The notes beneath the pieces were generated by a model. It was not told the DNA's origin. It ran no database searches and was given only the letters and a program-made list of their open reading frames with translations. DNA of 61,924 nucleotides, counting the filler, from Collodictyon triciliatum (lineage: Eukaryota): NCBI GenBank assembly GCA_043381765.1. It is 3 parts of 3 records of this genome, joined end to end, with 100 filler letters (N's around TTAATTAATTAA, not from the genome) between each part and the next. Parts side by side here need not be neighbours in the genome. Positions count along the whole stretch, not along the records: positions 35,711 to 61,924 come from JBHJMP010000409.1; 2 more parts are not named here. One strand, given 5' to 3'. This document shows, in pieces, positions 52,601 through 58,600 of the stretch (positions are counted from its first letter, which is position 1; every line of letters begins with the position of its first letter). The position numbers were made by a program, and so were the translations under genes.

Positions 52601-55600
52601 TTTCTCTCTTTTTTTCTCTCTTTTTTTCTCTCTTTTTTTCTCTCTTTTTTTCTCTCTTTTTTTCTCTCTTTTTTTCTCTCTTTTTTTTGCNNNNNNNNNN
52701 NNNNNNNNNNNNNNNNNNNNNNNNNNNNNNNNNNNNNNNNNNNNNNNNNNNNNNNNNNNNNNNNNNNNNNNNNNNNNNNNNNNNNNNNNNTTTTTCTCTC
52801 TCTTTTTTCTCTCTTTTTTTTTCTCTCTTTTTTCTCTCTCTTTTTTCTCTCTTTTTTTCTCTCTTCTTTTTTCTCTCTCTTTTTTCTCTCTCTTTTTTTT
52901 TTGCATGGGAGTACAGATTTACTTATATGAACATTACAGACTATCGACGCTTTGTCGCACAGATATGGTACAATACTTTGCGTGAATGCACGATTGTTGT
53001 TCAATCAATTGTTCGTCGCTGGTTGGCCATTCGCAAGTATCGCCCGCAAATCGAGGAACTTCGCCGCCTACGCACAGAAGAAGAAGCGTATGTATAGTAA
53101 AACATACCAGTTATTTATGTATCTCATTGAGAATTTTGACTGATGAGCAATTCAACCGACAGACGAATTGAACGCGCTAAGGCTGCAGAGCTCAGACAAA
53201 AAGAATTGCTGCGCATACAAAAACAGAGAGAAGAGCAAGAACTCCGCAAGAAGCAAGAAGAAGAGAGAAGGATACGCGAAGAGGAAGAGCGCAAACGAAG
53301 AATCGAATGGGAAAAGGAGCAAGAAGTACATTTTATGCCTAGCATATATACTACTTTGGAAGAAATATATTTGTATTGGTAAATTCATTTTCCGACTCGA
53401 TATTCTAGATCTCGTTATAGCAGGAACATTTAACTGAGATATTATTTTCAATCACGTCGATTTAGCGTCTTCGTGCTGAGGCTGCTCTTAATGCCATGAT
53501 TGACTCCCGAGCACAAGTCAAAGTGGAAGCTGCCAAGGTGGAATTCCAGAAGAAAGAGAAAGATTGGAGCGACAAGGTCTACATCTAATTGCCCCATATA
53601 CTATGTATCCATTCATTTAAAAAATTGGAATTTTTCTCCTCTTGCTCCTTCGTTGGTGTTTTTTTTTTTTTTTTTTTTTTTTTCATCAATTTTTCATTTT
53701 TTTATTTTTTTATTTTATNNNNNNNNNNNNNNNNNNNNNNNNNNNNNNNNNNNNNNNNNNNNNNNNNNNNNNNNNNNNNNNNNNNNNNNNNNNNNNNNNN
53801 NNNNNNNNNNNNNNNNNNTATTATTATTATTATTATTATTATTATTATTATTATTATTATTATTATTATTATTATTATTATTATTATTATTATTATTATT
53901 ATTATTATTATTATTATTATTATTTATCTTTATTCATCAATTTATCTAGATCGCTTTGCTGCAAGGTGAACTGGACCAGAGGGCACAAGTCAGTCAAGGA
54001 GAGCTTGAAAAGCTCCAGACAGAGGTATTTTTTTCCTTTATTCGATTCAAAGTTCAGACAAAGATACTTAGTATTTCTACCAAATTCTGCACATTTGTAC
54101 ATCTCTAACCCATGATTAAATTTATGAAAATATTCTCATGTTTGACTGCTCGCTTCTCATCAGGTAGAACAGACAAAACGCGACCTAGAACAGGAGAAAG
54201 ATGCACGAGCTCGTGACCATCAGTCCATGCAAAATAAGGTGTTTTTTTTTTTTTTTTTGTTATGTTTTTGTATCTTTCCTGAGAAAATTAGTAGCATGGT
54301 TTCTAGATGACTAAATCGAGCCATAATACAATTTATATCTCATTGTTACAGCTTAAGACTACAAATGAGTACCATGAGACTAATGAAAAGAGAATGAAGG
54401 AGAAAATCGAGGAGATATCATCGAAAGTCTGTCGTATTTATTAAAATCAGATACAAAATAAAACATTTTTAATTTCAAGATACCATATTCTTGTTTATTA
54501 ACCGAAAAAATATAGAATAAAGAAATGCAGCATGAATACAAGGAAGTAAAAAAGAAACACGCCCAAGAGGTTGAAGAAGCAGATGGAAAGGTAAATTATG
54601 AAATTTTAATTGAAATCATTTACAGTTAGTCATAATATGCCGTTCGTTGCTCTAGCTAGTAAAACTATAATAGAGTTATGTCGACACTTTTGTATATTGA
54701 GCCCACTTATATCGCTCAGATTAAGATTTTGGAATTGAACATTAAAGACCTCACGTCGAAGATCGACCACCAAAAAAAGGATTTTGAGACAAAAGTTTGT
54801 GTGATTTTGAGGACATATATTGAGCATTACGTAGACAGTTTTCTTGACTAATAATACTAAAATAAAATAAAATAAAAATAGCAAATTTAATAATCTTACG
54901 CCATCATTTTACTTCCATTTTGAAAAGGCCAAAGAAGATCAAACTTTGCATCAGCAAACTATAGCCCAGAAGGATACTGAGATTAGTGGACTCGAACTCA
55001 GGGTATTTGCAAACTATTTTGTGGATTTCTTCGCCTTTGGTTGATTTGATGAGTGACCTGAACATATATTTTATTCCTTTATTCTCCTTTTATTCTTCCT
55101 GATTTACACGATTGACTTGTTTTTTGTTATTTGTTTTTTTGTTTTTTGTTTTTTGTTTTTTGTTTTTTGTTTTTTGTTTTTTGTTTTTTGTCATAGCTAA
55201 AAGCATCTAAGGACGAATTTGATGCTGCCCGAGAAATTTATAGGCATGAGCAGGAAACTGGCGCTAAGAAGGTAAGCATGATGTTCATGGTGTCATTTAT
55301 TTCATTCCAGTTACCAGATATAATGTTGTCCCTCATCCTCATCTTGGAAAAAAAATCATATTTGTCGGGTATTGAAAGTATGACCTTCGATTATCGTCAG
55401 ATATCCGACCTGGAAAGCCAGCTAAAGCAAATGATGGTCGAAAAATCAAAAGAAATGGAAACTGCAAATCAAAGCATTCATGGTGTCAATCGCGAATTGG
55501 AAGAATTAAAACGTCTCTATCAAAGCCTACTCGAAGAGGTGCTCATATATTAGACTGCCTTCCCTCTGTTTTCGTTGCATCGTCTTTTCTTTTTCATTTT

Positions 55601-58600
55601 TACATACACAATTAATGAGACTTTGATCAAATTATGAAAATGTAATCGTAGATTTTCCATAATTAATCGCTAGCTTTAATCCAGAATGCATTATTGAAGT
55701 CACAAGTGGAATCATTATCTAAGCAATTGAAGCAAGTCAAGCTAGATAAAGAGGCTCTCTCTTTTGAACTAGAGTCTACAAAACAAGCTGTATCATTCAA
55801 CTTTTATTTTCTTTTCGTTCATCGCTATGTTGTTTGTCAGTAATAGCGAATTCCAAAAAAGATAGAGCGATTAACATTATAATCCTCATTTCTGCAGTTA
55901 CTTAATTTACAAGAGTCCATGAAGAGGCACGAAGAGGATAGCCATAGCTACAAAGAGAGGGCGCAAAAGGAGATTGACCATAATTTCCAACGGGCTCAGG
56001 AACTGCTTCTCAAAAATCAAGCGATGGAATCGAAGGTATGGTTTCAAAATTAATTGATTAACTAGCTATTTGTATGAAATAATTCAATCGACATGACACT
56101 GCGTGATGGAAAGTACCCCACGATTTGTAACACTAATTCCTTAGATTTTGAGGTACAAACAAGAGCGCGAGCTTGAAGAAGAAACTTTGAAAACCAGTGT
56201 TCAGGCGAAGGATTTGGAAGTGCAAAAACTCAATCTTAAGTTAACAGAGGTTCTCTCTGAAAACGTTCGCCTTCGAGAAACCGTTAGTTTTCTATTATAC
56301 TGATAAGCATGTGACAGTATTTGAATGAAGGAAATAAATCAAGAGCTTCTCACCATTATAAAATCATATGATTTATATATGCATGAACTTTAAAGCAATT
56401 TTGATGACGTGTTTTAGTTGGACTCCACCAGCGCGACCTTGGGCGAAAAATCAAGAGCCGCGCTTGTTGCTGAAAAAAGGCTCAACGAGAGCCGGTTTGA
56501 TTTGGACAGCGAGAAGGACAGACTCGATGTTCAAAAGGGGCTGTTAGAGAAGCAGGTACTTACAATTTTTCACTCCTGTTTATTCATATTTTGAGAGTCG
56601 TTATAGGGCACTGCACAAATATGTAAGTGATATAAATTTCTTGATGATTTTATCTCTCCCTTTTTTGTACTGAAAATAAACTCCCACAGGTTGCAACCCT
56701 TCAAGCGCAAATCAAGGAGCTTACTGTTTCTTCATCCGCAATCCAACGCAGACTAGAGGAAGATGTTGAGAAATTGACTTCACAAAACAAAAGCCTCCAG
56801 CTCGAGAAATCAGTTATGCAGCAAAAGGTAGTAATCATGACTGATTTCTTAAATACTTATCTTTAAGTTATTGCTTATTGAAGAGTAGTCCGTTGAAATC
56901 TGACTCTTTTATGTTTCTAAGGCCGAAACAGCCAAAATGGACGCCGACCGCCATCGCGTTGAGTCTGAACGACAGGCACAAGCAAGAAAAAATGCAGTCG
57001 TTGAGCTTGAGGCTGTTACTACAGAGGTAATTCAATTTCGATGGTTCAGTGTGATGCATGGCAAGAATGAATATATTAGAAGGGTTTTATAAATTAAAGT
57101 GGTTAATATGGGTCTGAGAAGGAAAAAGTGACAACCCCTAATTATTATTATTATTTTTAATTTGTTTTTTAGTTGGAAAAATCGAAAGCAAAGATAACCG
57201 AGCTACATAGAGAAACACGAACCCTGCGTGCGAGTGTTAGTGGTGACTCTTCTGAGCATTTGGAGGACATTCGGAGACTGGAAGCTCATCAATCGATTAT
57301 GAAAGCAGAGGTATATCATTTTCTATTTATTTTTATATAGAAAGATGCCTAAGTGACCATTCTTTCTTTGCTAATTTAAGTACTCATTCGATAATGCATT
57401 TCTATATTATCGCAAAGTTTGAAGAGGATGAAACCCACTTTTTTTATTATCCTACTTTCAAATTGCAGATGGAACAGCTGCGAAAAGATTTGTTTGAGGC
57501 TGAGCAAACAGTGAAGAAGGCTGAGGAAGATTCAATCAAGACAAATGAATCTCATGAATCTGTAGTATCCAAATTGCTGCTGGAGAAAACGCTTGCGGAA
57601 GTATCGGTCGGTTTTGTTTGCTTATATATATATGTAAACCCGGTTGGCTGTTCCATCGAATATGTGTCACATACGGTGGAGTTGAAATTAAATACGACTT
57701 AATTTTGTGTCTCCACGTTTTTACATTCACGTAGATGAATCGAATGCGAGAGAGCCTTTCTGAATCTCAGGCCACCATTCAGCATTTGCAAAAGCAGTTG
57801 GCGGAAGAAATCAGCGCTCGAACTCGCGACCAAGAAGAGTTTGTATCTGAGAAAATCAGATTGGAGCGTAAGGTCAGACACTCATTTAGTAGTTTCTGGA
57901 CATAATTTTTTTGATCAGTCATTTAGCCTTTTTACAATGTGACATATCGTGATTTATGTTGTACAGACCCAGCAGAGGGTTGAAGAAGTACATCGCGAAG
58001 CGCAGAGTCAAGAGCGTTCAGAGAGGAGAACTCGTGATGTTAATACAGGTTTATTGGGCTCTTCTGAATACACCGAACAAATAGCCGCGCTCACATCAAA
58101 GGTAATTTATTTTGATGTTCGTGTGAATATATGTCACTATTTCCTCGAATCTGTATTAATGTGTTATAATTGATTCAATGGAAGGAAACTATCACAGCTC
58201 TCTTTTATATACAATCCCTCTGGTATTGATAATTTGTTGGCAAAATATTCAAATTGTTGTGGATTCTTGAAATGGAATTGATATAATAAAACACTCTTAG
58301 AATACCTCCTTGAATGAAAAACTGAAGGAAGTTCAAACAGCGCTGTCTATCGCCCAAAAGAAGATATACGATGATGCAAAGGAAAATCTGTCGGAAAAGA
58401 CGCGTTTGGAGATGGAGAAGGCTCTGTTTGAATCCGAGCTCAAGGAAACTATGCACAAGGTTGCCTGGATTCATATGCATAAATCTAACGTTGCTCTTTT
58501 CTTTTTCATTTAAACAAAATTTAGTATGACTAAATTATATAGTATCGTCATTTTATAAAATAAATTAAGTTGTGCTTTTAACGCCTGCCAAATTTACTTT

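What the first reader, a model, noticed from the sequence alone, without database searches (positions are those of the whole stretch)
53950..58101. Myosin tail encoded by quantised phase-0 exons: seven of 75 nt, then runs of 138 and 105 nt
Seen: seven consecutive exons are exactly 75 nt/25 aa (53950-54024, 54164-54238, 54352-54426, 54516-54590, 54720-54794, 54928-55002, 55197-55271). The next exons are 138, 105, 138, 138, 138, 138, 105, 138, 132 (138 with the next GT), 138 and 135 nt, all phase 0-0, although their sequences look unrelated. Knowledge: 25 = 7+7+11, 46 = 5x7+11 and 35 = 5x7 are coiled-coil heptad/hendecad periods. Inference: the tail grew by ancient tandem exon duplication, with exon length conserved as a structural unit. 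Exon skipping could tune rod length without breaking frame or register.
Basis: partly seen in the sequence, partly recalled or inferred. Interest (0 to 1): 0.75.

Follow-up and report, generated by a model that had tools for sequence, protein, structure and literature searches.

The report
Myosin rod built from register-locked exons
The long helical tail of a protist-type myosin gene is encoded by a string of exons of only three lengths, each starting at the same point of the coiled-coil repeat, which looks like a rod assembled from duplicated exon cassettes.

Summary
On the + strand, 53950-58101 holds seven 75-nt exons, then exons of 138, 105, 138, 138, 138, 138, 105, 138, 132/138, 138 and 135 nt. 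All have AG/GT borders and all are phase 0-0.

A 1975-aa transcript-derived protein from a related species (P0001) aligns with the spliced translation without a gap for 678 residues, across 18 junctions. It favours the 138-nt form of the 132/138 exon.

Upstream lie a myosin motor whose best solved match is myosin VI, an IQ exon and a charged helix exon.

Hydrophobic periodicity peaks at 3.57 in the 75-nt block and 3.53 in the 138/105 block, with almost no power at 3.50. 19-20 of 24 exons start at a heptad 'a' position in a home-made register model. A dimer model passes its controls and shows seven contact layers per 25 residues.

Random placement of introns at 'a' boundaries never gave this regularity (0 of 200,000). 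Serial exon duplication is therefore the best origin, but direct sequence similarity between units is weak.

Exon skipping is untested, because no RNA data could be laid.

The parts
37414..40060 (+). myosin motor exons, N-terminal part (P0001 residues 1-351)
   Evidence: tblastn of P0001, junction search, and Pfam Myosin_head on 39778-40113
40061..49625 (+). 9565-nt phase-1 intron in the motor. Both ends lie next to N gaps. It holds guanylate-cyclase pieces (+) and a MIF4G piece (-).
   Evidence: Either nested genes or a scaffolding artefact; not resolved.
49626..52533 (+). myosin motor exons, C-terminal part, and the post-converter/neck exons
52940..53087 (+). IQ exon (enters in phase 1, leaves in phase 2)
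   Evidence: Pfam IQ at 18.5 bits, below the 20.3 cut-off; junctions
53163..53325 (+). E/K/R-rich charged helix exon; the all-phase-0 series begins at its donor
53466..53576 (+). tail exon, 111 nt (37 aa), phase 0-0
53950..54024 (+). 75-nt exon 1
54164..54238 (+). 75-nt exon 2
54352..54426 (+). 75-nt exon 3
54516..54590 (+). 75-nt exon 4
54720..54794 (+). 75-nt exon 5
54928..55002 (+). 75-nt exon 6
55197..55271 (+). 75-nt exon 7
55401..55538 (+). 138-nt exon
   Evidence: P0016 is an ORF call identical to this stretch
55685..55789 (+). 105-nt exon
55898..56035 (+). 138-nt exon
56145..56282 (+). 138-nt exon
56418..56555 (+). 138-nt exon
56690..56827 (+). 138-nt exon
56922..57026 (+). 105-nt exon
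57173..57310 (+). 138-nt exon
57469..57606 (+). 138-nt exon with two GT donors 6 nt apart (exon ends 57600 or 57606). The orthologue has 46 residues here, which favours 57606.
57735..57872 (+). 138-nt exon
   Evidence: P0015 (an ORF from the relative's DNA) diverges right after the homologous ...ERK
57967..58101 (+). 135-nt exon (45 aa; 44 in P0001)
58301..58459 (+). 159-nt exon, phase 0-0
58612..58728 (+). 117-nt exon, phase 0-0
58819..58959 (+). 141-nt exon. The homologous exon in the relative is 46 aa, bordered by ...Q| and |V (P0014).
59156..59296 (+). 141-nt exon, phase 0-0
59396..59500 (+). 105-nt exon, phase 0-0. The gene then runs into the N gap at 59611-60119. P0001 has 122 more residues, which were not found in the window.

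Best explanation
The region encodes the rod of an unconventional myosin heavy chain. The chain has a motor most like class VI, then neck/IQ, then a charged helix, then about 900 residues of alpha-helix.

The rod is most likely a parallel, in-register two-stranded coiled coil whose heptad pattern is interrupted at regular intervals by one 4-residue stutter, that is, by a hendecad. It is encoded by cassette exons that are all phase 0-0 and that nearly all begin at a core 'a' position:
- 25 residues = heptad + hendecad + heptad
- 46 residues = two heptads + hendecad + three heptads
- 35 residues = five heptads

This gives 7 core layers per 25 residues (period 3.57) in the proximal 175 residues. 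The next 438 residues hold 124 layers (period 3.53). The distal part has ordinary 3.50.

What is shown: the lengths, the phases, the register, the periodicities and the colinearity with an expressed orthologue.

What is inferred: the array arose by serial tandem duplication of exon-plus-intron cassettes, possibly in blocks, since the lengths read [46,35,46,46,46] twice. The sequence then diverged freely (49% identity between the two species) while any change of length was purged, because it would shift the register or the rod length.
For: - Exon table with AG/GT borders and phase 0 throughout.
- Ungapped alignment of 678 residues with the transcript-derived P0001, across 18 junctions.
- Core occupancy. 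Position 1 is hydrophobic in 11 of 14 25-mers and in 16 of 16 46-mers. Further peaks lie at 4, 8, 19 and 22, and at 4, 8, 11, 15, 22, 26, 29, 33, 36 and 43.
- The first residue is LIVMFYW in 13 of 18 quantised exons, against a background of 0.26 (p = 5e-5).
- Fourier peaks lie at 3.570 (power 15.7; shuffle 99th percentile 7.0; 0.2 at 3.50) and at 3.530 (25.0 against 7.8). P0001 gives the same.
- A home-made register model puts 19-20 of 24 window exon starts at 'a'.
- Dimer model of P0001 977-1151, two copies: score 0.38 against a best control of 0.00. That mark was reached by 21 of 30 proteins solved as pairs and 0 of 23 solved as single chains. Runs agreed in at least 94% of contacts and pLDDT was at least 85. 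Contacts run residue i to residue i, with 7 layers in each of 5 complete units.
- Random 'a'-boundary introns gave the observed regularity in 0 of 200,000 trials.
- Residual unit similarity: z 3.2, 2.4 and 4.1; 13 of 136 pairs with z>2 and 3 with z>3; lag 75 above the shuffle 99th percentile in P0001 (0.63 against 0.46).
- A homologue, P0002, has six 46-residue repeats. Lag 46 is its top similarity lag (0.22 against a shuffle 99th percentile of 0.13), and motifs of the type RL..ELEAL are visibly shared.
- In the relative's genomic ORF calls, exon borders fall at the same places. One exon that is 141 nt here is 46 residues there.
Against: - No RNA of this organism was seen. The junctions rest on AG/GT, open frames and colinearity with a relative.
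- Similarity between units is weak, and my null separates only core from non-core columns, so e/g charge preferences and the splice-site bias for K at exon ends could produce it.
- The two 35-residue exons score -2.0 against each other. The four 46-mer pairs expected under a 5-exon block duplication score 27.0, 20.5, 8.2 and -5.5, which is not outstanding among 28 pairs.
- A profile made from P0002's repeats picks exon starts no better than other in-register positions (5 of the top 25; the others are offset by 7, 11, 14 and the like).
- There are no DNA repeats among exon-intron units.
- The register model is ad hoc. In P0001 it gives 'a' at only 11-15 of 19 starts, depending on the jump penalty.
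- The dimer pass may reflect a generic likeness to solved coiled coils.
Confidence: 0.62

Rival explanations
1. The periodic rod came first, as a continuous coding repeat. Introns were then gained independently at proto-splice sites (AAG|G, GAG|A and the like), which recur at g|a boundaries of a K/E/Q-rich coiled coil.
For: The exon's last residue is K in 11 of 24 exons, and many exons end in AG, as the splice consensus prefers. Unit sequences look unrelated.
Against: Even when restricted to 'a' boundaries, random placement never gave 7 equal spacings or 3 or fewer lengths (0 of 200,000). All 24 introns share one phase, while the head of the same gene has mixed phases of 9/5/4.
Confidence: 0.15
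2. The helix is not a parallel dimeric coiled coil. It is a single stable alpha-helix or a weak, transient or antiparallel assembly, and the periodicity reflects something else, such as charge banding.
For: Core positions in the 25-mers are often polar: positions 11, 15 and 19 are hydrophobic in only 4-6 of 14. Net charge shows a marginal period of about 12.5 residues, with power 8.5 against a shuffle 99th percentile of 9.3 in the window, and 9.9 against 7.9 in P0001. A clearly charged helix lies just upstream.
Against: There is a strong hydrophobic period at 25/7 and 46/13. The dimer model passes its controls with i-to-i contacts.
Confidence: 0.12
3. The pattern is a chance pattern or a gene-model artefact.
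For: None beyond the absence of RNA from this organism.
Against: Colinearity with P0001, the simulation, and identical borders in the relative's genomic ORFs.
Confidence: 0.02

Closest known systems
Class VI myosins
   Same: The motor's best solved matches are myosin VI chains (670 bits; alignment of query 49-794 to chain 44-784). Myosin Va follows at 622 bits and myosin II at 567. A charged helix follows the neck. A relative found with the motor exon (P0005) carries the RUN domain. Passages of PMC3942036 report that domain only for myosin VI homologues of Thecamonas and Emiliania.
   Different: No Pfam family other than Myosin_head and IQ was found in P0001, so no known cargo-binding domain. 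The tail is a roughly 900-residue periodic coiled coil. No phylogeny was made, and the reverse-gear insert was not verified.
Myosin II rod (28-residue repeat with skip residues; recalled, not from a call)
   Same: A long alpha-helical rod behind a motor, with regular departures from the heptad pattern.
   Different: Here there are stutters every 25 or 46 residues rather than four isolated skips. As far as I recall, the exons of myosin II rods do not follow the repeat. P0010, a Myosin_N-bearing hit, shows plain 7/14/21 lags.
Collagen 54-bp exons and nebulin 35-residue module exons (recalled)
   Same: Runs of symmetrical exons of quantised length, each encoding one structural unit, explained by exon duplication.
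   Different: The structural unit here is a coiled-coil segment that starts at an 'a' position and carries one hendecad. Unit sequences have diverged almost beyond recognition.
Coiled coils with non-heptad periodicities, such as hendecads (11/3) and 25/7, and the 29-residue repeats of SF-assemblin and beta-giardin (recalled from reviews by Gruber and Lupas; not read here)
   Same: Regularly spaced stutters or skips that shift the period away from 3.50.
   Different: Here the period changes along one rod, from 3.57 to 3.53 to 3.50, and each step coincides with a change of exon length.

Membership tests
Myosin superfamily | Myosin head (motor) domain on the same transcript as the tail | tested here: met
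   Pfam Myosin_head on 4 of 16 window ORF pieces, one of them below the cut-off. P0001 has Myosin_head at 65-742, 805 bits. tblastn shows P0001 colinear from 37414 to 59512.
Class VI myosin | Motor groups with class VI | tested here: inconclusive
   The best PDB matches are myosin VI (670 bits), against Va (622) and II (567). No tree was made.
Class VI myosin | Reverse-gear insert 2 between converter and IQ | tested here: inconclusive
   Alignments to myosin VI chains run past the converter, to query 794. The 44-aa exon 52057-52188 searched alone matched nothing at E<=1.
Class VI myosin | C-terminal myosin VI cargo-binding domain | tested here: not met
   The Pfam scan of P0001 at E<=0.001 lists only Myosin_head and IQ.
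Two-stranded parallel coiled coil with stutters | Hydrophobic core periodicity with 3-4-4 spacings | tested here: met
   Contact-layer spacings in the dimer model show one 4-4 step per unit.
Two-stranded parallel coiled coil with stutters | Self-association in parallel register | tested here: inconclusive
   Model only: score 0.38 against a best control of 0.00. The mark was reached by 21 of 30 solved pairs and 0 of 23 single chains. Contacts run i to i. This is not a measurement.
Repeat proteins built by tandem exon duplication | Consecutive symmetrical exons of the same phase and length | tested here: met
Repeat proteins built by tandem exon duplication | Detectable homology between units | tested here: inconclusive
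   z 3.2, 2.4 and 4.1 against a crude null. 13 of 136 pairs have z>2. The 35-mers score -2.0. The P0002 profile is not specific for exon starts.
Repeat proteins built by tandem exon duplication | Similarity of introns or DNA between units (recent duplication) | tested here: not met
   Only T-rich low-complexity families and short 70-76% two-copy matches were found.

The most novel reading that the evidence does not exclude
The exons are register-neutral cassettes in actual use. Every exon is phase 0-0 and starts at an 'a' position, so skipping any of them, or switching between the two donors 6 nt apart at 57600/57606, would shorten the rod without breaking the frame or the core. The organism could then make myosins with rods of graded length and supercoil from one gene.
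Probability: 0.15. Interest if true: 0.75.

Novelty: new variant of a known kind. Interest (0 to 1): 0.55.

Why it matters
This is an unusually clean case in which gene structure mirrors the fine structure of a coiled coil: intron positions lock onto the heptad register, and exon length sets the spacing of stutters.

It gives a concrete model for how long rods grow, by cassette duplication under a strict length constraint. It also provides a natural series of 25/7 and 46/13 coiled coils for structural study, and a testable route to rod-length isoforms.

The tail appears to be rare. A full HMMER pass over 1.84 billion representative proteins found only the orthologue and three ORF fragments. 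Three full-text searches found no paper describing such an arrangement. I saw only listings and abstract starts for those searches.

Tried and rejected
- RNA evidence. The search for runs listed one run (X1) with a word share of 0.09, only guessed to be RNA; no RNA holder was listed.
- The window's own genome is not held.
- Cluster members of P0001 and P0004, where Trinity isoforms might have shown skipping, could not be listed because the database was switched off.
- A tail-exon search among proteins of 82-2000 residues found nothing (42 candidates, none scored).
- A tail search with P0001 940-1975 among near-length proteins found only P0001 itself.
- A five-exon super-repeat is not supported by pair scores.
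- A P0002-derived repeat profile is not specific for exon starts.
- Charge periodicity of about 12.5 and 13.25 residues is only marginal.
- The post-converter exon searched alone against solved structures gave no match.
- Earlier findings of this scan held nothing.
- In one search the row for 53148-53325 used a wrong acceptor. One search places it at 53163.
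Full report
**What is in the sequence**

The window is eukaryotic DNA at about 35% G+C, with many N gaps and microsatellites. At the stated coordinates the seven 75-nt exons are real open segments. Each is preceded by AG and followed by GT, and each gives 25 residues.

An enumeration of all AG...GT open frames and a table of borders give the following exons: 55401-55538 (138), 55685-55789 (105), 55898-56035 (138), 56145-56282 (138), 56418-56555 (138), 56690-56827 (138), 56922-57026 (105), 57173-57310 (138), 57469-57600/57606 (132/138), 57735-57872 (138) and 57967-58101 (135).

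The series continues on both sides. Upstream is 53466-53576 (111 nt). Downstream are 58301-58459 (159), 58612-58728 (117), 58819-58959 (141), 59156-59296 (141) and 59396-59500 (105). After that an N gap interrupts the gene. All of these exons are phase 0-0.

**It is a myosin**

Upstream on the same strand, ORF pieces match Pfam Myosin_head (4 of 16 pieces scanned, one below the cut-off). One piece matches IQ just below its cut-off.

A search with the motor exon 51414-51623 returned 13 proteins at E<=1e-5 among 20 candidates. The best is P0001, a 1975-residue complete ORF from a transcriptome assembly, 89% identical over the exon. P0001 has Myosin_head at 65-742 and an IQ, and nothing else in Pfam.

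tblastn lays P0001 colinearly on the window from 37414 to 59512. Its best solved relatives are myosin VI chains (670 bits), ahead of myosin Va (622) and myosin II (567). Another hit, P0005, carries a RUN domain. Passages of PMC3942036 describe that domain as unique to myosin VI homologues of Thecamonas and Emiliania.

I therefore call the motor class-VI-like but do not file the gene in class VI. No cargo-binding domain was found, no tree was made, and the reverse-gear insert was not verified (one search gave no match).

**Are the junctions right?**

No RNA of this organism could be examined. The spliced translation was computed inside scripts. It aligns with P0001 residues 940-1853 at 447 identities in 918 columns. 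The first 678 residues, spanning 18 junctions and including all of the 75-, 138- and 105-nt exons, align without a single gap. Three consequences follow:
- No exon is missing in the N gap at 53719-53818.
- The 57606 donor (138 nt) fits better than 57600, because the orthologue has 46 residues there.
- The rod has tolerated 51% sequence change with no change of length.

A HMMER pass with the P0001 tail over 1.84 billion representative proteins found four proteins at E<=0.001. They are P0001 itself, an ORF call identical to the window (P0016), and two ORF calls from DNA of the relative (P0014, P0015).
- P0014 reads straight through one exon. It is bordered by ...Q| before it and |V... after it, as an AG acceptor and a GT donor would give. 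That exon is 46 residues long, whereas the window's copy has 47.
- P0015 diverges right after the ...ERK that ends the homologous exon here.

**Contrast within the gene, and chance**

A junction search guided by P0001 resolved 18 head and neck introns, with phases 0/1/2 = 9/5/4. Two further junctions were not resolved. From 53326 onward, all 24 consecutive introns are phase 0. If the head's share of phase 0 is taken as the background, that is about 0.5^24; this figure is my own arithmetic, not a tool result.

I also placed 16 introns at random among the 78 'a'-position boundaries of the quantised part. This gave a run of 7 equal exons in 0 of 200,000 trials, and 3 or fewer distinct lengths in 0 of 200,000 trials. 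The mean number of distinct lengths was 11.5.

**Structure of the rod**

Folding the exons on themselves shows hydrophobic residues at fixed positions:
- In the 14 25-mers (7 from the window, 7 from P0001), position 1 is hydrophobic in 11, position 4 in 8, position 8 in 10, position 19 in 6 and position 22 in 10.
- In the 16 46-mers, position 1 is hydrophobic in 16, position 4 in 12, position 8 in 14, position 36 in 15 and position 43 in 14. Intermediate peaks lie at 11, 15, 22, 26, 29 and 33.

The spacings read 3-4 with one extra 4 per exon. So 25 = 7+11+7 and 46 = 7+7+11+7+7+7, while 35 = 5x7.

Fourier analysis agrees:
- The 175-residue block peaks at 3.570, with power 15.7 against a shuffle 99th percentile of 7.0, and 0.2 at 3.50.
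- The 438-residue block peaks at 3.530, with power 25.0 against 7.8. The expected value is 438/124 = 3.532.
- The distal 266 residues peak at 3.50.
- P0001 gives the same values.

The first residue of 13 of the 18 quantised exons is LIVMFYW, against a background of 0.26 (p = 5e-5). A simple home-made register model puts 19-20 of 24 window exon starts at 'a', depending on the jump penalty. In P0001 the figure is 11-15 of 19, so the model is less stable there.

A two-copy model of P0001 977-1151 scored 0.38 against a best control of 0.00. That mark was reached by 21 of 30 proteins solved as pairs and 0 of 23 solved as single chains. The runs agreed in at least 94% of contacts and pLDDT was at least 85. 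Contacts run from residue i to residue i. Mapped onto the units, there are seven contact layers in each of five complete 25-residue units. This is a model, and it may reflect a generic likeness to solved coiled coils.

**Origin**

Direct evidence of homology between units is weak.
- Sum-of-pairs scores at offset 0 exceed a null that shuffles columns within core and non-core classes: z 3.2 for the 25-mers, 2.4 for the 46-mers, and 4.1 for the first 25 residues of all 15 units.
- 13 of 136 unit pairs have z>2 and 3 have z>3.
- In P0001 the lag-75 similarity (0.63) exceeds the shuffle 99th percentile (0.46). This hints at a three-exon block.
- The null is crude, however. The two 35-mers score -2.0 against each other. 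The pairs expected under a [46,35,46,46,46] block duplication are not outstanding. No DNA repeat links the units.
- Outside this gene, the homologue P0002 has six 46-residue repeats with visible shared motifs. Lag 46 is its top similarity lag (0.22 against 0.13). So 46-residue units do duplicate in this family.
- Against that, a profile of those repeats does not pick the window's exon starts better than other in-register positions.

Taking these together with the simulation, serial cassette duplication followed by divergence under a length constraint is the best-supported origin. I rate it at about 0.6. Independent intron gain at proto-splice sites is the main rival.

**Function**

The idea that exon skipping tunes rod length follows logically from phase 0-0 exons that start at 'a' positions, but nothing here tests it. 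The strict length conservation between the two species argues that rod length or register matters.

**Novelty**

Three full-text searches returned no paper on exons locked to the coiled-coil register or on hendecads in a myosin tail. I saw only listings and abstract starts for those searches. The comparisons with collagen, nebulin, the myosin II rod, SF-assemblin and the 25/7 periodicity are recalled and come from no call.

Noticed in passing
window 40061-49625: The motor is split by a 9.5-kb phase-1 intron whose ends lie next to N gaps (40234-40312 and 49372-49471). Inside it are guanylate-cyclase catalytic pieces on the + strand (97 bits at 42972-43358) and a MIF4G piece on the - strand (46120-46533). 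These are either nested genes or a contig misplaced in scaffolding.
   Followed up: partly
window 57600-57608: Two GT donors lie 6 nt apart at the end of exon 57469, giving 132 or 138 nt. The orthologue fits 138.
   Followed up: partly
P0002 residues about 975-1294; also P0003, P0006, P0008, P0009: Tails of related myosins from other transcriptomes also peak near 3.53-3.57 rather than 3.50. P0002 shows a clear 46-residue repeat. A Myosin_N-bearing hit (P0010) shows plain 7/14/21 lags.
   Followed up: partly
window 53950-55271 and P0001 977-1151: Net charge has a marginal period of about 12.5 residues, that is, two bands per 25-residue exon. Power is 8.5 against a shuffle 99th percentile of 9.3 in the window, and 9.9 against 7.9 in P0001.
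   Followed up: partly
window 53819-53925 and 55114-55196: A long (ATT)n run lies directly after an N gap, and a (TTTTTG)n run lies inside the intron before the seventh 75-nt exon.
   Followed up: no
window 10474-11786, 21710-22227, 29059-29931 (+ strand): Neighbouring genes are SBDS (N- and C-terminal domains), a protein kinase, and a leucine-rich-repeat protein.
   Followed up: partly
window 60120-61924: After the last N gap the sequence becomes much richer in G+C. It shows no match to the last 122 residues of P0001, so the 3' end of the myosin gene was not found in the window.
   Followed up: no
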